Below are positions 2,079 through 18,820 of a DNA stretch of 31,420 nucleotides, one piece after another. Both the position numbers and the translations under genes were made by a program. Below the pieces are notes generated by a model, which worked only from the letters and a program-made list of their open reading frames with translations, was not told the DNA's origin and ran no database searches. The first letter of the stretch is position 1. Every line of letters begins with the position of its first letter. Source of the DNA: an uncultured Hormoscilla sp. GTDB lineage: Bacteria > Cyanobacteriota > Cyanobacteriia > Cyanobacteriales > Desertifilaceae. The stretch covers positions 1-31,420 of the forward strand of contig CAWUFA030000002.1 of NCBI GenBank assembly GCA_963921275.4. The letters are read 5' to 3'.

Positions 2079-3708
2079 TTAAAAAAGATAGAAAAAAAAT
2101 TTTTTTTAATCTTACGTAATATACTAAACTCTTTCTAGAAAATAAAAAAACACTTAATAATTTTTCTAATCAAAAAAATTCATACGTTAAATAAAAGTTA
2201 CTCAAAAATAATATCCAAAAACTAATATTTCGATGAAAAATAGGATTGTAAAAAAATATATAAAACCTCATAAAAAAATTATAAAAAAAAAAAATAAAAA
2301 AAAAAAAAATTCCTAAAAGCAAGATAATTAATGGAATTATTTTTAGTATAACTAAAAACTCTTCTATTATAAAAAAAAAACTAAGTATAAATATTCTTAA
2401 AAAAATAGATCTAAAAGATAATGAAATTAATCAAGAAATATTTAATCTTATTTTTTCTAAATACAAAATTTTAAAATTTTTTATTTTATTTTTTAATCTT
2501 AAATTTCTTAAATAAATCAAACGAAAAGAATAAGATACCGTAAAAATAGATCTTATAAAAAAAATTATAATAATTGTTGAATTTAATAAATTGCCTCATA
2601 AATTTTCTAAAATTAAATCTTTAGAGTAAAATCCAGAAAAAAATGGTATTCTCATTAAGGAAAAAGATGCAATCACAAAACAAATATTAGATATATTTCT
2701 CCCAATTATTCTTACTAAATTTTCTACATCTTGATTATTATTTGATCTATGAATATATAGTCTAGATGTTATAAACAAAAGACTTTTAAAAAAAGAATGT
2801 ATTCTTAATAAAAAAAAACAAACTTTAGATCTAAGAATTCTGCAAGTTAAAATTATAAAACCTAATTGACTTGTAGTACTAAAAGCAATGATTTTTTTCA
2901 CATCAGATTGTCTAATGCTACAAATACCTCTAAATAATATAGTTATTCTTCTTAAAAATCTAATTAAATTTAAATTAAGAAATCTAAAACAATTTACTAA
3001 TCGAATAAACAAAAAAACTCTAGCTACTACTATAGTTGAAGAATGTAATAAAGAAGATACTGGAGTAGGTCTTTCTATAGCATTAGGTAATCAGGGATGA
3101 AAAAAAAACTGCGAAGACTTAGCAATAATACAAATAATTAAAAAAAAACTAAAAAAATTATTATGTATAAAATCTAAATTTTTAGTAATTTCTAAACAAT
3201 ATCTTGAAAAAATAAATATTAAACATAAATAAAATCTAAAATCTCCTAATCGATTGTAAATAACAGCTTGAATAGCGGATTGAGTTGCTTCAGAACGTCC
3301 AGTTCATCAGCAGATTAATAAAAAAGATATAATTCTTACTCTTTCTCACCTAATTAAAATGAAAAAAAAAGAATTAGATATAATTAATATGAATATAAAG
3401 TAAATAAATAAAAATAAATAAATTAAAAAAATAAATTTCCTTGGTTCGTACATAAAATATCAAATGCTATATCATATAATAAAAATTCTTACTGTTAATA
3501 AAATTAATATAAAAAAGTTAGAAAAAAAATCTAATTTAAAAGATATTAATATTTTGTTTATTTTTCTAAAAAAAAAAACTCCATCTTTAAAAGAAAAAAA
3601 AGAAACAATAAAAAAAAAGAAAAATAATTTAAATAAATTAAAAGAAAAATTATTTTTAATTAAGAAGAAAAAACAAATAAAACAAAAAAAAAACAAAAAA
3701 AAAAACAT
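2041..3708 (-). CDS. nad5: NADH dehydrogenase subunit 5 (555 aa, table 13)
   Basis: ATG 3708; motifs PTPVSSLLHSST, DVKKIIAFSTTSQLG, PFFSGFYSKD; frame read to TAA at 2043-2041 inside the tandem array. Confidence 0.93.
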
Positions 3709-3773
3709 ATTTAAGACTTTTATTTTGTGTTTTTAATTCCTAAAATTAATAGATTTTATTATCATACTTAAAT
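3709..3773 (-). tRNA. trnL1: tRNA-Leu(UAG)
   Basis: Acceptor ATTTAAG/CTTAAAT; anticodon arm TTAAT-TTTAGGA-ATTAA. Confidence 0.88.
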
Positions 3774-3837
3774 AGATTTCTTCAAACTTTTTACGTAACA
3801 AAAACGCACGTTTTATAAAAATATAAACTACTAAAAA
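3774..3837 (-). tRNA. trnQ: tRNA-Gln(UUG), 3' truncated by trnL1
   Basis: 5' TTTTTAG-TA-GTTT..AAAC; anticodon arm TGCGT-TTTTGTT-ACGTA; T arm GTTT/AAAT; only CT before trnL1. Confidence 0.8.
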
Positions 3838-3910
3838 AAAAAATTAATAAAAAAAAAAAAAAAAATATACATAAAAAAAAAAAAACAAATCTTAAATTTA
3901 TATGAGGCAA
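3838..3910 (-). CDS. atp8: ATP synthase F0 subunit 8 (about 24 aa, incomplete T stop)
   Basis: TTG CCT CAT ATA AAT = MPHMN, resembling the MPQL N-terminus, then a hydrophobic stretch; in-frame T at 3838 abuts trnQ (ATA at 3913 is an alternative start; readthrough TAA at 3791). Confidence 0.7.
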
Positions 3911-3927
3911 TATTATAAAATTATAGT

Positions 3928-4755: not shown

Positions 4756-4770
<15 letters not shown>
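4711..4770 (-). tRNA. trnS2: tRNA-Ser(UGA)
   Basis: Acceptor AAAAGTT/GGCTTTT; anticodon arm TTTAG-TTTGAAA-CTAAA. Confidence 0.82.
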
Positions 4771-7352: not shown

Positions 7353-7419
7353 ACTAAAAGGGTCTTATTATCCATTTTTTTAATGTAAATAAAAAATATT
7401 ATCTATATAATACTTTTAG
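7353..7419 (-). tRNA. trnV: tRNA-Val(UAC)
   Basis: Acceptor CTAAAAG/CTTTTAG; anticodon arm TTTTA-TTTACAT-TAAAA. Confidence 0.87.
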
Positions 7420-7474
7420 TAGAGGTTAAACCTAAAAAATTTTTTGCAAAAACTTTTATAATCTAATCTACTAA
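7415..7474 (-). tRNA. trnC: tRNA-Cys(GCA), D arm replaced by loop; overlaps trnL2 and trnV
   Basis: Acceptor TTAGTAG/CTACTAA; anticodon arm AGTTT-TTGCAAA-AAATT; T arm AGGT/ACCT. Confidence 0.78.
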
Positions 7475-7533
7475 AGGAATTATAACTCATTGTAAAATCT
7501 TAGATTTTATGCATATATTTCTGCCACCTTAGT
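7469..7533 (-). tRNA. trnL2: tRNA-Leu(UAA)
   Basis: Acceptor ACTAAGG/CTTTAGT; TGGCAGA D region; anticodon arm TAAAA-TCTAAGA-TTTTA. Confidence 0.88.
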
Positions 7534-7534
7534 T

Positions 7535-7593
7535 TTGCAATTTAATTTTTTAAGTAATAAACTTAATGGTTTAATTACATAACCTAAAATGCA
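7535..7593 (-). tRNA. trnM2: tRNA-Met(UAU), tunicate extra Met tRNA, apparently lacking T arm
   Basis: Acceptor TGCATTT/AATTGCA; D stem GGTT/AACC; anticodon arm TTAAG-TTTATTA-CTTAA. Confidence 0.83.
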
Positions 7594-8926
7594 ATATAAT
7601 CGTATCTAAAAAAAAAGTCATTAATAAAAAAAAAAACAAAAATAAATAAAAAATAAAAAAATCTATTTTAGTTTCTTTAAAAATCTTACACATTATTTTA
7701 GATTGAGAAAATAATCTCAGCATATTAAACAAATAGATTGCATTAAAAACAAATCCTATAAAAATTACAATTATAAAAAAAAAAAAATTTTTTGAAATTC
7801 TAATCATAATAAATATTTCTGAAAAAAAATTAATAGTAGGAGGTATCCTTATATTAAATAAACAAAAAATAAGTATATAAAAAAATAAAAACTTATTATT
7901 ATTAATAAAACTTTTTATACCAACCAAATTCCGAGTGTTATAGATTTTACTAAGTAAAAAAACTATAAAAAATATAGAAGGAGATACTAATCTATGTCTT
8001 AAATATATAAAATACCTACCTTTAAAACTTATGTATAACCTAGAAATAGATCTAACAAAAGCTAAACTCATATGACTTACTGAACTAAAAGCAATAATTA
8101 CCTTAGAATCTAATATACGTAAACAAATAAAAGAAGTAAAAAAATATCTAAAAGATCCTAAAAAAAAAAATAAAAAAGATAATAAATAAGAAAAAGAATA
8201 ATTAATAAAAAAAATACTACGTATCACTCCATATCTTCTTAATTTTAATAAAACTCTTGCTAAAATTATAGATCTTCTAATAGGAGCATCTACATGGGCT
8301 TTGGGTAATCATATATGAAGCCTATAAATCGGAAGTTTTCTTAATAATCTTAATATTATCCTCAAAATAATATATAAATGAATTTTTTTCTGATAGTGTT
8401 TTAATAATGTATAATATATTAATCTTTCTCCATTTTTTATGAAATAAATTACAACTAAAAAAAGAGGTACACTTAAAATAATTGTAAAAAAAAAAAAATA
8501 ATATAAAGAAAAAATTCGTTCTTTATAATCTCTAAAAAATTTTACTAAAAAAAAGATAGGTAGTAACGATAATTCAAAAATAATAAAAAAAAAAAAAAAA
8601 TTAGAAGTAATAAAAAAAAAAATAAGAATAAAAAAAATTAAAACCATAGAGAAAGAAATAATAAAAAAATCTATATTGATTAATAATAATATAGATAGAA
8701 AACTTAAAATTACTACAAAAACAGATAATCAAACTAGTACTGATGAAATATTATCTACATATATAAATCTATAATGAAAAGATCTTATGATTTCTCTTGT
8801 TTTTAAAAACAATTTAAAAAAAAAAATCACAAAAAAAAACATATAAAAAATAATTCAAAATTTTTGTTTTTTTTTTTTTATCATAATACTTATTATTAAA
8901 AAACTAAACAATAAATGCAGTAACAT
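7594..8926 (-). CDS. nad4: NADH dehydrogenase subunit 4 (444 aa plus incomplete T stop)
   Basis: ATG 8926; WLPKAHVDAP, DSKVIIAFSSVSHM, PPTINFFSE; in-frame T at 7594 abuts trnM(UAU) (readthrough TAA at 7571). Confidence 0.93.
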
Positions 8927-8995: not shown

Positions 8996-9599
8996 AAGAT
9001 CCTTCAATTGTGTATAAATTAAGAAGCATTGAGAAAACATAAGATTGAATAGCTGCTACACACATTTCTAAAAAAATCAATATTAATAATAATGGTAAAA
9101 GAAAAAATCTAAATAATCTTAAATTAAAAAATCTTAAAGATATAAGATGTATAAGCAAGTGTCTAGCTGTAATATTAGCTATTAATCGGATTCTTAAAGA
9201 AATTGGTCGAGTAAAGTTGCTAATAGTTTCAATAATAATTAATAAAAAAATTAAAAGAAAAGGAGTTCTTGTAGGTAAAAAATGAGAAATATTCTTATTT
9301 AAATTTTTAAAAAATAAAAAAAAAAAAATTGAAGATCAAAGCATTCAACTTAAGAAAAAAGTAGATTGAATGGAAGAAAATCTAAATCTATAGGGAATAA
9401 GGGAAAAAAAATTCAAGAATATAATAAAAAGAGGAATAAGTAATATAATTTGAAAATTAAAAAAATTTTTTGAATAAATATAAATTAATATTTTTTTTAA
9501 AAAAACTTTTTTATTAAGAAAAAATACTAAAAAAAAAAAAAAGATTAATAAAAATAAAAAAGAAAAAGGGAAGTAAGTAAATTCAAAATTAATAAACAA
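8994..9599 (-). CDS. atp6: ATP synthase F0 subunit 6 (201 aa)
   Basis: TTG start; HFLPTGTP, RPISLGIRLMANITAGHLL, EMCVAAIQSYVF; TAG (or incomplete T before trnP). Confidence 0.93.
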
Positions 9600-9656
9600 T
9601 AAAACCCAAAAACTTTACTATGCAAAAGTAATATTTTAATATTAAAATAAGGTTTT
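9600..9656 (-). tRNA. trnA: tRNA-Ala(UGC), lacking T arm
   Basis: Acceptor AAAACCT/GGGTTTT; anticodon arm TTACT-TTTGCAT-AGTAA; 7-nt loop in place of variable and T arms. Confidence 0.85.
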
Positions 9657-9780
9657 AAGTATTTATTGAATTATAAATGATAAAAATTTTAATAAAATAT
9701 ATATTTATATAGATTTTTAATAATAAATTATTTAAAAATAAATTTAATAAAGAAAGGATGTGTTAAAAAAAAAGGAAATA

Positions 9781-10819: not shown

Positions 10820-10888
10820 TGTAAAAAAAATTAAAAAATTTATCTATTTTTTTTCAAAAAATTATTTTTATATTTATACTATTTTTAC
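10820..10888 (-). tRNA. trnF: tRNA-Phe(GAA)
   Basis: Acceptor GTAAAAA/TTTTTAC; anticodon arm ATTTT-TTGAAAA-AAAAT. Confidence 0.8.
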
Positions 10889-10956
10889 AGACACTCTTAT
10901 TTAAGAGTTTTTAGGATCATGAGACCTATAACTTATTAATATTAGTTTATATCTAA
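10889..10956 (-). tRNA. trnM: tRNA-Met(CAU), 3' truncated by trnF
   Basis: D stem AACT/AGTT; anticodon arm TAGGT-CTCATGA-TCCTA; T arm CTCTT/AAGAG. Confidence 0.9.
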
Positions 10957-11018
10957 TTCAATAAATTTTTTATAATTAACAGTTATAATGTAATAAAATT
11001 TTTATATACTATATTGAT
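10957..11018 (-). tRNA. trnN: tRNA-Asn(GUU), apparently lacking T arm
   Basis: Acceptor TCAATA/TATTGA; anticodon arm TATAA-CTGTTAA-TTATA. Confidence 0.85.
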
Positions 11019-12783: not shown

Positions 12784-12840
12784 CAAAAGTGTGTATTTTA
12801 TGATACTATTTCAAATTAGCAATTTGTTTTTTTCACTTTT
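12784..12840 (-). tRNA. trnS1: tRNA-Ser(GCU), lacking D arm
   Basis: Acceptor AAAAGTG/CACTTTT; anticodon arm CAAA-TTGCTAA-TTTG; T arm GTAT/ATAC. Confidence 0.87.
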
Positions 12841-13786: not shown

Positions 13787-14059
13787 TTAATAAAAAAAAA
13801 TAAAATTATATAAAAATACATAAATACTAAATATAGATATTTATTTATGTTTAAATATTTATATATATATATATATAAATAAATATATATGTATTTATAT
13901 ATTATGTGTTTATTTATAATTTAAATTATATGAGCATATATACTTAATTTTATATAATTTTATTTTAAAAATTACATTCTATATTTATATAATATTATTT
14001 ATTTTTTATAAATATATTTTTATATTAATATAAATTTTAAAGTAATTAATAAGAAGTAA
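13787..14059. promoter_or_regulatory. Longest unique non-coding region, candidate control region / origin
   Basis: Almost pure A/T; (TA)n palindrome 13856-13881 and hairpin 13818-13850; function inferred only. Confidence 0.45.
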
Positions 14060-14199: not shown

Positions 14200-14263
14200 T
14201 ACATTAGGGTATTTAAACCATTAAAAATTTTACAAATTTCCACTTTTTTCAGACACTTAATGT
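14200..14263 (-). tRNA. trnY: tRNA-Tyr(GUA)
   Basis: Acceptor ACATTAA/CTAATGT; anticodon arm GAAAT-TTGTAAA-ATTTT; T arm GGT/ACC. Confidence 0.83.
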
Positions 14264-15193: not shown

Positions 15194-15256
15194 TATCGAC
15201 TTAATTTCTTACTTTAGACAAAAATATGAATTATTATAAATATATTCTATATCGAT
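15194..15256 (-). tRNA. trnD: tRNA-Asp(GUC), copy 2
   Basis: Copy of 201-263. Confidence 0.85.
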
Positions 15257-15313
15257 AGAAAAATAATTTTTCTTAATTATCACAAAATTAAATTTTACAT
15301 AAACTACTAAAAA
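15257..15313 (-). tRNA. trnH: tRNA-His(GUG), copy 2
   Basis: Copy of 264-320. Confidence 0.8.
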
Positions 15314-15381
15314 TAAAGGTGATTATTATATCACATATTTAGTTTTATCAAAACAATTCGTTTATAATCCGACACTTTAAA
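15314..15381 (-). tRNA. trnI: tRNA-Ile(GAU), copy 2
   Basis: Copy of 321-388. Confidence 0.85.
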
Positions 15382-15440
15382 AATCACTTTTTGAAGATTT
15401 TTAATTTGGAAAATTAAAGTATTTTTTATACTACAATTAA
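15382..15440 (-). tRNA. trnG: tRNA-Gly(UCC), copy 2
   Basis: Copy of 389-447. Confidence 0.88.
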
Positions 15441-16506
15441 AAAATAAATAAAATAAAATCCTTTCGTACTATTATTTTATATTTATCAAAGAAAAAAAAC
15501 CAAACTAAATTACTCCGTTCTAAACCCAACTCACGTAAAATTTTAAATGAGGAACAATCATTATTATTTTAAATACTGCCCCAAAAAAATATTTTGAGCC
15601 GACATCGAGGTCGTAAATAAATAAATTAATATGTTCTCTTTTTATTTATTGCGCTGTTATCCCTAGGGTTAATTTATTTTCTTTTTAAAGGTTTAAAATT
15701 AGTATTTATATTAATAAAAAAAAAAATAATTGTTTATTTTTTAACTATCACTGCCCCAGTCAAGTTTTTTAAAAAATTTTTTTTAATAAACCTAAATTAC
15801 CAAGGGTCTTTTCTTTCTTTTAAAAAGTAATAGCTTATTTAACTATTAAAGTATTTTCATTTTTAAAAAATAAAAAAAAAAAAATATTTTTCATAAATAT
15901 ATTCTTTTAAAAATATACCATATGTAAAAAAAAAATTAATCTTTTCTTAAAATACTTTAAAATAAAAATCTATAAAGTAAGTGTTTAGTAAACTTTTAAA
16001 TTTTTTTTCTAGTCATTTATTTTTTTTTTATTCATAATGTGATATATTTAAAATATTAATATTAGTGCAAAAAATTACTCATATATACCATTTTTTTAAT
16101 ATTTATTAATAAGTAATAATATATAAAAAAAATAAAAAAAAGTTTTTATACTTCAAAAACACTTTAAATAAAAAGTTTATATTATATTTTGTAAATTTTC
16201 CATAAAATCTTATTAAATTAAAAGCTGACCCTTTAAAATATAATAAAAAATTTTTATTTAATATATTTCAATATTAAATATATATTTAAACTCTTGTTTA
16301 ACATATAATCACTTCTTTTTTTTTTATTTTTTTAATCCAAAATAGTACATAAAAAAGAAAATCGAGTATTTTCGATAAAAAAAATTTTTTTTTAATTTTT
16401 TTGTATATCCATTTCCAAAAAGGAAAATTTAATATAATGATTAAAAAATAAAAGATTCACATCTTTTTATTTATTAAAATAAGATTTTTTATTATAAAAA
16501 TTTTTT
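15441..16506 (-). rRNA. rrnL: Large subunit rRNA, copy 2
   Basis: Copy of 448-1514 with a 1-bp homopolymer difference. Confidence 0.93.
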
Positions 16507-16569
16507 AAATAATTTTAATTTTTTTGTTAGAAAAACAAACGTTTTATTAATATTATAAACTAAATTATT
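16507..16569 (-). tRNA. trnE: tRNA-Glu(UUC), copy 2
   Basis: Copy of 1515-1577. Confidence 0.8.
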
Positions 16570-16579
16570 TTTAAAAAAA

Positions 16580-17061
16580 TTAAAAATATTAAAAATATTA
16601 AAAATATTAAAAATATTAAAAATATTAAAAAAAATTAAAAATATTAAAAAAAATTAAAAATATTAAAAAAAATTAAAAATATTAAAAAAAATTAAAAATA
16701 TTAAAAAAAATTAAAAATATTAAAAAAAATTAAAAATATTAAAAAAAATTAAAAATATTAAAAAAAATTAAAAATATTAAAAAAAATTAAAAATATTAAA
16801 AAAAATTAAAAATATTAAAAAAAATTAAAAATATTAAAAAAAATTAAAAATATTAAAAAAAATTAAAAATATTAAAAAAAATTAAAAATATTAAAAAAAA
16901 TTAAAAATATTAAAAAAAATTAAAAATATTAAAAAAAATTAAAAATATTAAAAAAAATTAAAAATATTAAAAAAAATTAAAAATATTAAAAAAAATTAAA
17001 AATATTAAAAAAAATTAAAAATATTAAAAAAAATTAAAAATATTAAAAAAAATTAAAAATA
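16580..17061. repeat. Tandem array, copy 2: 5 x 9-mer then 23 x 19-mer
   Basis: Counted directly. Confidence 0.95.
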
Positions 17062-18691
17062 TTAAAAAAGATAGAAAAAAAATTTTTTTTAATCTTACGT
17101 AATATACTAAACTCTTTCTAGAAAATAAAAAAACACTTAATAATTTTTCTAATCAAAAAAATTCATACGTTAAATAAAAGTTACTCAAAAATAATATCCA
17201 AAAACTAATATTTCGATGAAAAATAGGATTGTAAAAAAATATATAAAACCTCATAAAAAAATTATAAAAAAAAAAAATAAAAAAAAAAAAAATTCCTAAA
17301 AGCAAGATAATTAATGGAATTATTTTTAGTATAACTAAAAACTCTTCTATTATAAAAAAAAAACTAAGTATAAATATTCTTAAAAAAATAGATCTAAAAG
17401 ATAATGAAATTAATCAAGAAATATTTAATCTTATTTTTTCTAAATACAAAATTTTAAAATTTTTTATTTTATTTTTTAATCTTAAATTTCTTAAATAAAT
17501 CAAACGAAAAGAATAAGATACCGTAAAAATAGATCTTATAAAAAAAATTATAATAATTGTTGAATTTAATAAATTGCCTCATAAATTTTCTAAAATTAAA
17601 TCTTTAGAGTAAAATCCAGAAAAAAATGGTATTCTCATTAAGGAAAAAGATGCAATCACAAAACAAATATTAGATATATTTCTCCCAATTATTCTTACTA
17701 AATTTTCTACATCTTGATTATTATTTGATCTATGAATATATAGTCTAGATGTTATAAACAAAAGACTTTTAAAAAAAGAATGTATTCTTAATAAAAAAAA
17801 ACAAACTTTAGATCTAAGAATTCTGCAAGTTAAAATTATAAAACCTAATTGACTTGTAGTACTAAAAGCAATGATTTTTTTCACATCAGATTGTCTAATG
17901 CTACAAATACCTCTAAATAATATAGTTATTCTTCTTAAAAATCTAATTAAATTTAAATTAAGAAATCTAAAACAATTTACTAATCGAATAAACAAAAAAA
18001 CTCTAGCTACTACTATAGTTGAAGAATGTAATAAAGAAGATACTGGAGTAGGTCTTTCTATAGCATTAGGTAATCAGGGATGAAAAAAAAACTGCGAAGA
18101 CTTAGCAATAATACAAATAATTAAAAAAAAACTAAAAAAATTATTATGTATAAAATCTAAATTTTTAGTAATTTCTAAACAATATCTTGAAAAAATAAAT
18201 ATTAAACATAAATAAAATCTAAAATCTCCTAATCGATTGTAAATAACAGCTTGAATAGCGGATTGAGTTGCTTCAGAACGTCCAGTTCATCAGCAGATTA
18301 ATAAAAAAGATATAATTCTTACTCTTTCTCACCTAATTAAAATGAAAAAAAAAGAATTAGATATAATTAATATGAATATAAAGTAAATAAATAAAAATAA
18401 ATAAATTAAAAAAATAAATTTCCTTGGTTCGTACATAAAATATCAAATGCTATATCATATAATAAAAATTCTTACTGTTAATAAAATTAATATAAAAAAG
18501 TTAGAAAAAAAATCTAATTTAAAAGATATTAATATTTTGTTTATTTTTCTAAAAAAAAAAACTCCATCTTTAAAAGAAAAAAAAGAAACAATAAAAAAAA
18601 AGAAAAATAATTTAAATAAATTAAAAGAAAAATTATTTTTAATTAAGAAGAAAAAACAAATAAAACAAAAAAAAAACAAAAAAAAAAACAT
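17024..18691 (-). CDS. nad5: NADH dehydrogenase subunit 5, copy 2
   Basis: Copy of 2041-3708 (+14983). Confidence 0.93.
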
Positions 18692-18756
18692 ATTTAAGAC
18701 TTTTATTTTGTGTTTTTAATTCCTAAAATTAATAGATTTTATTATCATACTTAAAT
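18692..18756 (-). tRNA. trnL1: tRNA-Leu(UAG), copy 2
   Basis: Copy of 3709-3773. Confidence 0.88.
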
Positions 18757-18820
18757 AGATTTCTTCAAACTTTTTACGTAACAAAAACGCACGTTTTATA
18801 AAAATATAAACTACTAAAAA
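18757..18820 (-). tRNA. trnQ: tRNA-Gln(UUG), copy 2
   Basis: Copy of 3774-3837. Confidence 0.8.

What the first reader, a model, noticed from the sequence alone, without database searches (positions are those of the whole stretch)
3709..3837. Hidden tRNA-Gln truncated in exactly the same way as tRNA-His
Seen: a good cloverleaf (TTTTTAG-TA-GTTT..AAAC-G-TGCGT-TTTTGTT-ACGTA-AAAA-GTTT-GAAG-AAAT-CT) stops where trnL1 begins at 3773. The genomic continuation ATTTA gives three T.T mismatches, whereas AAAAA gives a perfect stem. The 5' strand TTTTTAG and the 3' remnant CT are identical to those of trnH at an unlinked locus. It is the only UUG candidate I found, so tools could report trnQ as lost. Inference: independent support for A-addition repair, possibly with a shared recognition element.
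Basis: partly seen in the sequence, partly recalled or inferred. Interest (0 to 1): 0.7.

Follow-up and report, generated by a model that had tools for sequence, protein, structure and literature searches.

The report
Overlapped sea-squirt tRNA-Gln, likely A-repaired
This is the glutamine tRNA gene of a sea-squirt mitochondrial genome; its end overlaps the next tRNA gene and is likely completed by added A residues, a repair known from snails, squid and humans and predicted here for four tRNAs, although a shorter fold needing no repair is also possible.

Summary
The window is 2.1 tandem copies of a 14,983-bp aplousobranch ascidian mitogenome inside a bacterial assembly. In detail: trnQ(UUG) starts at 3837 (- strand). 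As a cloverleaf it overlaps trnL1 by 6 nt, has three T.T mismatches, and A-filling gives a 7/7 stem, as in trnH. It is the best UUG candidate and resembles Phallusia trnQ. It is not hidden: ARAGORN's mitochondrial mode finds it, though barely.

The pattern is wider. trnI and trnM(CAU) are also perfected by A-filling, and 8 of 8 mismatches inside tRNA overlaps face a 5' T. Two other overlaps (trnL2/trnC, trnC/trnV) are already perfect and would be broken by A-filling.

Chance tests favour the cloverleaf 2- to 16-fold. A shared Q/H recognition element is not supported.

Best reading (0.62): RNase P cut at trnL1, then poly(A)-polymerase repair. This is a known mechanism that I did not find reported for tunicates. 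No RNA data were available.

The parts
3774..3837 (-). trnQ(UUG), part encoded upstream of trnL1 (positions 1-67 of the cloverleaf reading); anticodon at 3801-3799
3768..3773 (-). 6-nt overlap: positions 68-73 of trnQ in the cloverleaf reading = positions 1-6 of trnL1; three T.T mismatches for trnQ
3778..3791 (-). alternative reading of trnQ's 3' part: 6-nt TV-replacement loop (3791-3786), acceptor strand 3785-3779 pairing 7/7 (4 Watson-Crick, 3 G.U), discriminator 3778; no overlap
3708..3773 (-). trnL1(UAG), 7/7 acceptor stem; its discriminator is the A of the nad5 ATG
3838..3910 (-). probable atp8 (MPHMN..., TTG start): a cut at trnQ's 5' end leaves an incomplete stop T after 24 codons; the frame otherwise runs to TAA 3793-3791 inside trnQ (39 aa)
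   Evidence: named from position and N-terminal motif (recalled); no family or homolog hit
15251..15313 (-). trnH(GUG): 6-nt overlap with trnD, 5/7 genomic, 7/7 A-filled; no T-armless alternative
15311..15381 (-). trnI(GAU): 3-nt overlap with trnH, 5/7 genomic, 7/7 A-filled
10886..10956 (-). trnM(CAU): 3-nt overlap with trnF, 6/7 genomic, 7/7 A-filled
7353..7533 (-). trnL2-trnC-trnV chain: overlaps of 6 and 5 nt with 7/7 genomic stems that A-filling would break (to 3/7 and 5/7); counter-class
18691..18820 (-). second tandem copy of trnQ-trnL1 (offset 14,983), identical

Best explanation
This is the single mitochondrial tRNA-Gln gene of an aplousobranch ascidian; read as a cloverleaf, its last six positions are the first six of tRNA-Leu(UAG), and it is likely matured by cutting at the Leu 5' end and refilling the missing end with A residues. 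Shown: the gene, the overlap, the three mismatches, the five U's facing them, and the same pattern in trnH, trnI and trnM(CAU). Inferred: (1) mitochondrial RNase P cuts the polycistronic RNA at 3773|3774 and at 3837|3838, releasing a tRNA-Gln that ends in C66-U67; (2) mitochondrial poly(A) polymerase adds an oligo(A) tail, which pairs with U1-U5; (3) RNase Z or a deadenylase trims it to A73; (4) CCA is added. No special recognition element is needed: the polymerase would act on any free 3' end, and only tRNAs with U's opposite the gap survive the overlap.
For: Identity: best of 15 TTG stem-loops, best of 8 ARAGORN Gln calls, 35 CAR codons in 12 reading frames need it. It shares G7, D stem GUUU, G26 and 3 of 5 anticodon-stem pairs with P. 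fumigata trnQ. Register: a cut at 3837 leaves the upstream frame with an incomplete stop T, as at 3 more of 6 protein-tRNA junctions examined; human mtRNase P cuts mostly at the canonical site even with an extra -1:73 pair (PMC12630138, passages). Pattern over all 24 tRNAs: 5'-strand T at 17 of 23 overlap-facing positions against 43 of 145 others (p=9e-5; without Q 12 of 18 against 43 of 143, p=0.003); mismatches 8 of 23 against 10 of 145 (p=7e-4); 8 of 8 overlap mismatches face T against 4 of 10 elsewhere. Per tRNA, 5 of 6 overlapped ones start TT against 3 of 18 (p=0.007; without Q p=0.017). A-filling raises ARAGORN scores of Q, H, I and M(CAU) (100.3 to 106.2, 100.6 to 108.2, 100.9 to 107.5, 101.2 to 104.6) and lowers L2 and C (107.5 to 95.7, 100.1 to 99.1). 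Energy of the imposed fold: genomic +1.6, T-armless -2.1, A-filled -4.2 kcal/mol. Cloverleaf features arise by chance in 0.4-2.4% of T-armless-compatible random sequences, T-armless pairing in 4-6% of cloverleaf-compatible ones. Mechanism known: PMC4284800 section 3.1, PMC4787750.
Against: No RNA was seen. The T-armless fold pairs 7/7 without any editing, ARAGORN scores a T-armless version 102.2 against 100.3 for the genomic cloverleaf, and 6 of 24 tRNAs here are T-armless by my reading. Two overlaps of like size (L2/C, C/V) cannot be A-repaired, so another route exists in this organelle and could serve trnQ too. The test that mismatches prefer T within overlaps is borderline (hypergeometric 0.05; Fisher 0.058). 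Positions within one tRNA are not independent, the genome is 82% A+T, and I set the registers by hand. trnG(UCC), which I counted as T-armless, would fit neither class if read as a cloverleaf overlapping trnI (5/7 genomic, 4/7 A-filled). The A-filled constructs also carried CCA, which may add to their scores. No minimum-energy fold reproduced the full cloverleaf. No close relative was available for covariation.
Confidence: 0.62

Rival explanations
1. tRNA-Gln is T-armless: a 6-nt TV-replacement loop, acceptor strand 3785-3779, discriminator 3778, a 4-nt spacer, then trnL1. There is no overlap and no editing; the CT before trnL1 is a coincidence or a relic.
For: 7/7 pairing with 4 Watson-Crick and 3 G.U pairs. 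ARAGORN draws a TV-loop tRNA-Gln scoring 102.2 when given the sequence up to trnL1, in a register one base off mine. Six other tRNAs have 7-8 nt between anticodon stem and acceptor strand, among them trnE, the closest to trnQ outside the acceptor stem (23 of 29 positions). Phallusia trnQ stems are G.U-rich.
Against: Chance ratio 2.2 to 15.7 in favour of the cloverleaf, depending on strictness. Weaker fold than the A-filled cloverleaf. The loop is shorter than in the six T-armless tRNAs (6 against 7-8 nt). Both Phallusia trnQ have a T arm and G7-C66. It leaves the five-U run and the match to trnH, which has no such alternative, unexplained.
Confidence: 0.2
2. Alternative processing: in some precursors RNase Z cuts after position 73 inside trnL1, so tRNA-Gln keeps its genomic end and works with a 4/7 acceptor stem; trnL1 comes from other precursors.
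For: The L2/C and C/V overlaps have perfect genomic stems and point to such a route. The cox1 and nad4 stop codons lie 12 and 21 nt inside downstream tRNAs. Alternative cutting in vitro is mentioned for human Tyr/Cys (unpublished data cited in PMC4787750). U1-A72 and A73 are present in the genomic form.
Against: Three adjacent mismatches: none of the 18 non-overlapped tRNAs has more than two. The imposed fold is unstable (+1.6 kcal/mol). It does not explain the T enrichment opposite overlaps.
Confidence: 0.08
3. Template-directed fill-in, as in the centipede Lithobius: the truncated end is copied from the 5' strand. For trnQ the product equals the A-filled one, and the same enzyme would repair trnL2 and trnC.
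For: One mechanism would cover all six multi-base overlaps. Precedent in PMC4284800 (passage).
Against: It predicts no bias toward T opposite overlaps and free decay of 3' strands; instead 8 of 8 overlap mismatches face T and only 10 of 145 other positions are mismatched.
Confidence: 0.07
4. The locus is a decaying trnQ, or mainly atp8 coding sequence; tRNA-Gln is imported.
For: The upstream frame runs open for 15 codons into it. Position 37 is T. The ARAGORN score is marginal.
Against: D and anticodon stems are intact and match Phallusia trnQ. T37 occurs in 5 of 24 tRNAs here and in Phallusia trnM(UAU). There is an incomplete stop exactly at its 5' end.
Confidence: 0.03

Closest known systems
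A-addition editing of overlapped mt-tRNAs in the land snail Euhadra herklotsi and the squid Loligo bleekeri (as reviewed in PMC4284800 section 3.1, read whole; PMC11571959 passage; the original snail paper was not held)
   Same: Same-strand overlap of up to 6 nt, mismatches in the overlapped acceptor strand, U stretch on the 5' strand, downstream gene intact.
   Different: Shown there by RNA sequencing, only predicted here. Here four predicted cases sit beside two equally long overlaps that A-filling would break, and trnQ has a T-armless alternative.
Human mt-tRNA-Tyr/Cys repair by mtPAP with PDE12 or RNase Z (PMC4787750, abstract, introduction and passages)
   Same: Supplies the enzymes and order of steps; the authors state that the reaction is not specific to tRNA-Tyr.
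   Different: One nucleotide (the discriminator) against six here, five of them in the stem. The tunicate enzymes were not examined.
Template-dependent 3' editing in Lithobius forficatus (PMC4284800 passage)
   Same: Restores mismatched acceptor stems at the 3' end.
   Different: 21 of 22 tRNAs and all four nucleotides there; here only A is ever needed and most stems are intact.
Gene overlaps annotated in ascidian mitogenomes (PMC2220002 passages, section 14 and supplements S3, S4; PMC3698926 passages and section 18; PMC13757907 part 1 of 3; PMC2785839 passages)
   Same: tRNA-tRNA overlaps (trnL(CUN)-trnT in Phallusia, trnT-trnY 4 bp in Rhopalaea crassa), 24 tRNAs on one strand, incomplete stops completed by polyadenylation, stops lying far inside a downstream tRNA.
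   Different: In the passages I read, none links overlaps to A-repair of acceptor stems. The detailed overlap supplement of PMC3698926 (.doc files S3, S6, S7) could not be read.

Membership tests
Mitochondrial tRNA-Gln (trnQ, UUG) | UUG centred in a 7-nt loop with U33 on a 5-bp stem; U8-A9; 4-bp D stem | tested here: met
   5/5 anticodon stem, 4/4 D stem
Mitochondrial tRNA-Gln (trnQ, UUG) | Only candidate outside other genes, and similar to orthologs | tested here: met
   Phallusia trnQ from machine-read figure text: 5 of 7 letters of the 5' strand, D stem, G26, 3 of 5 anticodon-stem pairs (P. fumigata)
Mitochondrial tRNA-Gln (trnQ, UUG) | U1-A72, the amidotransferase identity pair in bacteria (PMC9976931 passage) | tested here: met
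   present in the genomic, A-filled and T-armless readings, so it does not separate them
Mitochondrial tRNA-Gln (trnQ, UUG) | Expressed and aminoacylated | not testable with these tools
   needs RNA
Template-independent A-repair of overlapped mt-tRNAs (Euhadra/Loligo/human type) | Same-strand overlap of 1-6 nt with the downstream gene | tested here: inconclusive
   6 nt in the cloverleaf reading, none in the T-armless reading; chance ratio 2-16 for the cloverleaf
Template-independent A-repair of overlapped mt-tRNAs (Euhadra/Loligo/human type) | Downstream tRNA complete with a canonical 5' end | tested here: met
   trnL1 7/7 stem from 3773
Template-independent A-repair of overlapped mt-tRNAs (Euhadra/Loligo/human type) | Mismatches in the overlapped strand facing a U run, so that A's restore pairing | tested here: met
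   4/7 to 7/7 for Q; same for H, I, M(CAU)
Template-independent A-repair of overlapped mt-tRNAs (Euhadra/Loligo/human type) | Non-genomic A's in the mature tRNA | not testable with these tools
   needs RNA
Template-independent A-repair of overlapped mt-tRNAs (Euhadra/Loligo/human type) | Host encodes mtPAP, RNase Z, a deadenylase and the CCA enzyme | not tested
   host nuclear genome not at hand; incomplete stops at 4 of 6 junctions imply polyadenylation
T-armless (TV-loop) mt-tRNA | 7-bp acceptor stem closing 5-10 nt after the anticodon stem | tested here: met
   7/7 with three G.U, loop 6 nt
T-armless (TV-loop) mt-tRNA | No T stem-loop available, and orthologs lack the T arm | tested here: not met
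   a 4-bp T stem follows a canonical 4-nt variable loop; 2 of 2 Phallusia trnQ have a T arm; no aplousobranch ortholog was available
Template-dependent 3' editing (Lithobius type) | Most tRNAs mismatched at the 3' end, and bases other than A required | tested here: not met
   10 of 145 non-overlap positions mismatched; 8 of 8 overlap mismatches need A only
   AG/CT in Q, H, I, C and in non-truncated L1, V, K; absent from M(CAU); TAGTTTA in 7 of 24

The most novel reading that the evidence does not exclude
One poly(A) tail does two jobs. RNase P at trnL1 releases an atp8-trnQ RNA ending in CU; its poly(A) tail first makes it the mRNA of a 39-41-residue ATP8 whose stop lies inside trnQ, and then folds back on U1-U5 to build the acceptor stem that lets the same molecule be cut into tRNA-Gln. 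More broadly, this organelle sorts overlapped tRNAs into two routes by their stem: perfect stems are cut 3'-first and kept genomic, mismatched ones are cut by the neighbour and rebuilt from A's, six bases deep, in a chordate.
Probability: 0.12. Interest if true: 0.65.

Novelty: new member of a known kind. Interest (0 to 1): 0.32.

Why it matters
If confirmed, it extends multi-base A-repair of tRNA acceptor stems, shown in molluscs, to tunicates, the sister group of vertebrates, where I found no report (searches; most subscription papers are not held). One genome with four A-repairable and two non-repairable overlaps is a ready test of how mitochondria choose between repair and alternative cutting. 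That tolerance may help explain how ascidian gene order reshuffles so freely. For annotation it shows that an overlap with mismatches must be checked against a T-armless reading before editing is invoked. The mechanism itself is established.

Tried and rejected
No RNA holder listed among 6 runs. Laying contigs of 4 runs on 3702-3838 gave none from the two same-organism runs and only five 35-40-nt partial matches under 90% identity from the other two; not interpretable.

No ascidian mitogenome among the 160 loci from the metagenome and genome scans with cox3: none favoured code 13 by more than 2 bits. None in 13 related bacterial assemblies or viral contigs.

atp8 length is unresolved: no Pfam hit for 2 of 2 versions, no homolog among 4 candidates, no atlas result.

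Recent duplication of trnH into trnQ was considered and rejected: outside the acceptor strand Q matches E (23 of 29) better than H (20 of 29).

An 8-bp trnL1 stem starting at 3774 was considered and rejected: a -1:73 pair is possible in 13 of 24 tRNAs, including trnP, where the -1 T supplies the incomplete atp6 stop.

One search had wrong coordinates for four tRNAs (M-UAU, W, S1, E) and lacked Y; the counts cited come, except the within-overlap Fisher value and the T-armless scan of overlapped tRNAs, which those errors do not touch.

Gissi and Pesole 2003 and Yokobori and Paabo 1995 were not held.

Full report
CONTEXT. The window is contig C3 of assembly G000. It has 17.6% G+C against 42-49% for the other six contigs, and holds a 14,983-bp unit repeated about 2.1 times. 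Twelve respiratory-chain genes plus a short probable atp8 lie on the - strand, and conserved glycines are read only with AGA/AGG = Gly, NCBI code 13. COX1 is 84% identical to Rhopalaea idoneta and 82% to Aplidium conicum. It is an aplousobranch ascidian mitogenome co-assembled with a bacterium. All 24 tunicate tRNAs can be placed: ARAGORN -mt gave 26 calls on the - strand, 22 real and 4 with implausible anticodons, and I placed trnY(GUA) and D-armless trnS1(GCU) by hand.

THE OBSERVATION. The quoted structure is in the sequence. trnQ runs from 3837; read as a cloverleaf, positions 66-67 are CT at 3775-3774 and positions 68-73 are the first six bases of trnL1, which has its own 7/7 stem. The genomic stem pairs 4 of 7 with T.T at pairs 2-4; A-filling gives 7 of 7. 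trnH has the same 5' strand, remnant and overlap length. Genomic and A-filled trnQ differ only at positions 69-71. The gene is the best of 15 TTG stem-loop candidates and of 8 ARAGORN Gln calls; the other seven score 90.4 or less and lie in protein genes, rRNA or on the + strand. CAA and CAG occur 30 and 5 times in 3,661 codons of 12 frames. T at position 37 is unusual but shared by 5 of 24 tRNAs here and by Phallusia trnM(UAU). Phallusia trnQ, read from machine-extracted figure text whose columns can be off, has 5' strand UUUAUUG, D stem GUUU, G26 and, in P. fumigata, 3 of 5 identical anticodon-stem pairs. The gene is real and is not hidden from the right tool: ARAGORN -mt scores it 100.3 against a cut-off of 100. 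Plain ARAGORN and Rfam see no tRNA in the window at all.

IS THE REGISTER RIGHT? The argument needs trnL1 to start at 3773. I set position 1 seven bases before the 8-9 connector for every tRNA. With that rule, 4 of 6 protein-tRNA junctions examined leave a T or TA that polyadenylation would complete: atp8|Q, atp6|P, cob|N, nad4L|Y. The other two, cox1|S2 and nad4|M(UAU), leave none. An extra -1:73 pair is possible in 13 of 24 tRNAs, and human mtRNase P still cuts about 75% at the canonical site with a G-C pair there (PMC12630138, passages).

THE GENOME-WIDE PATTERN. Six tRNAs overlap the next tRNA by more than one base. Four are mismatched and perfected by A's: Q/L1 (6 nt, 4/7 to 7/7), H/D (6 nt, 5/7 to 7/7), I/H (3 nt, 5/7 to 7/7), M(CAU)/F (3 nt, 6/7 to 7/7). 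Their 5' T runs (5, 5, 3, 2) cover what is needed (5, 5, 2, 2). Two are perfect as encoded and broken by A's: L2/C (7/7 to 3/7) and C/V (7/7 to 5/7). Over all 24 tRNAs, T faces 17 of 23 overlapped positions against 43 of 145 others, mismatches are 8 of 23 against 10 of 145, and all 8 face T. The enrichment survives removal of Q (12 of 18 against 43 of 143, p=0.003). Per tRNA, 5 of 6 start TT against 3 of 18 (p=0.007). ARAGORN scores rise on A-filling for the first four and fall for the other two. Against this: the within-overlap test is borderline (0.05), positions are not independent, and trnG(UCC) fits neither class if read as a cloverleaf overlapping trnI. I counted it as T-armless with two A.A mismatches, whereas ARAGORN drew it as a cloverleaf.

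The 5' strand also pairs 7/7 (4 Watson-Crick, 3 G.U) with 3785-3779, after a 6-nt loop. This gives a 60-nt T-armless tRNA ending four bases before trnL1. ARAGORN, given the sequence up to trnL1, draws a TV-loop tRNA-Gln of 102.2 in a neighbouring register. Six other tRNAs here have only 7-8 nt in place of the variable loop and T arm, so the form is normal for this genome. To weigh the two readings I drew random 18-mers with the tRNA base composition. T-armless pairing appears in 4-6% of cloverleaf-compatible sequences, cloverleaf features in 0.4-2.4% of T-armless-compatible ones, a ratio of 2.2 to 15.7 (criteria set after seeing the sequence). Imposed-fold energies are +1.6 (genomic), -2.1 (T-armless) and -4.2 kcal/mol (A-filled). 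Both Phallusia orthologs have a T arm and G7-C66. trnH, trnI and trnM(CAU) have no comparable alternative (best 3/7, 4/7, 5/7), so the case for A-repair in this organelle does not depend on trnQ. trnQ is the least clean of the four.

THE SHARED ELEMENT. Q and H share their first 15 bases and CT. The parts are generic. Positions 8-14 TAGTTTA occur in 7 of 24 tRNAs, and AG/CT at 6-7/66-67 in 7 of 24, including non-truncated L1, V and K and excluding A-repairable M(CAU). The U run is required by A-filling, and Phallusia trnQ and P. fumigata trnH already begin UUU. Outside the acceptor strand Q resembles E more than H, as expected if one non-discriminating GluRS charges both (PMC9976931 passage on bacteria and archaea; its application to animal mitochondria is recalled). 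Human mtPAP repair is described as not specific to one tRNA.

MECHANISM. Shown: gene, overlap, mismatches, U run, parallel cases. Inferred: RNase P cut at trnL1, oligoadenylation by mtPAP, pairing of the tail with U1-U5, trimming to A73 by RNase Z or a deadenylase, CCA addition (0.62). Rivals: T-armless (0.20), genomic end by alternative cutting (0.08), templated fill (0.07), non-functional (0.03). The L2/C and C/V overlaps need a second route, most simply 3'-first cutting of some precursors. The review states that alternative processing was excluded for human Tyr/Cys, while the mtPAP paper cites unpublished in vitro data for it.

COMPARISON AND NOVELTY. It works like the snail and squid A-addition editing, and meets every DNA-level feature of that class under the cloverleaf reading; the defining RNA feature could not be tested. 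In five searches and in the ascidian papers I read in passages I found overlaps annotated but not linked to A-repair. The review has no occurrence of ascidian or tunicate. [quoted passage not shown] 2010) may bear on this. Verdict: a new, predicted member of a known kind; interest 0.32. The boldest reading not excluded is that the atp8 frame, open for 15 codons into trnQ, is really used, so that one tailed RNA is first mRNA and then pre-tRNA. An open stretch of that length is not rare, nad4L likewise reads 74 nt into trnY, and a similar case is noted for Halocynthia nad4L (PMC2220002 passage), so I give it 0.12.

Noticed in passing
window 1-31420: An ascidian mitogenome (2.1 tandem copies; repeat offsets 14,993 and 14,983) is a contaminant contig in a 7-Mb bacterial assembly. 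COX1 is at most 84% identical to other proteins found, so the species may lack a public mitogenome. The copies differ near 15777 and in the repeat region.
   Followed up: partly
window 7353-7533 (-): trnL2, trnC and trnV form a chain in which each 3' acceptor strand doubles as the next 5' strand, all three stems 7/7; A-filling cannot resolve these overlaps.
   Followed up: partly
window 4756-4770 and 7571-7594 (-): The cox1 and nad4 stop codons lie 12 and 21 nt inside trnS2 and trnM(UAU), with no incomplete stop at the tRNA 5' end: alternative processing, non-stop mRNA, or a homopolymer error in the assembly.
   Followed up: partly
window 7541-7594, 9599-9657, 10956-11018, 15194-15256, 15386-15440, 16507-16569 (-): About six tRNAs (M-UAU, A, N, D, probably G-UCC and E) appear T-armless, with 7-8-nt replacement loops; the ascidian passages I read mention D-arm loss and only sporadic T-arm loss.
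   Followed up: partly
anticodon loops of trnQ, trnE, trnP, trnD, trnM(UAU): Position 37 is T in 5 of 24 tRNAs instead of the usual purine.
   Followed up: partly
window 3838-3916 (-): Probable atp8 would be only 24-26 residues if it ends at trnQ, essentially one hydrophobic helix; no family or homolog hit.
   Followed up: partly
window about 1580-2060 and 16570-17040: Array of 9-10-nt units (period 19) that runs into the 3' end of nad5 on one side and abuts trnE on the other.
   Followed up: no
window 12784-12840 (-): D-armless trnS1(GCU) between rrnS and nad1 with a 7/7 acceptor stem and a mismatch at the top of the anticodon stem; missed by ARAGORN -mt at default, as is trnY(GUA) at 14200-14263.
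   Followed up: partly
window 13790-14050: AT-only non-coding region with a TA repeat and an imperfect palindrome (13816-13917), a candidate control region.
   Followed up: no
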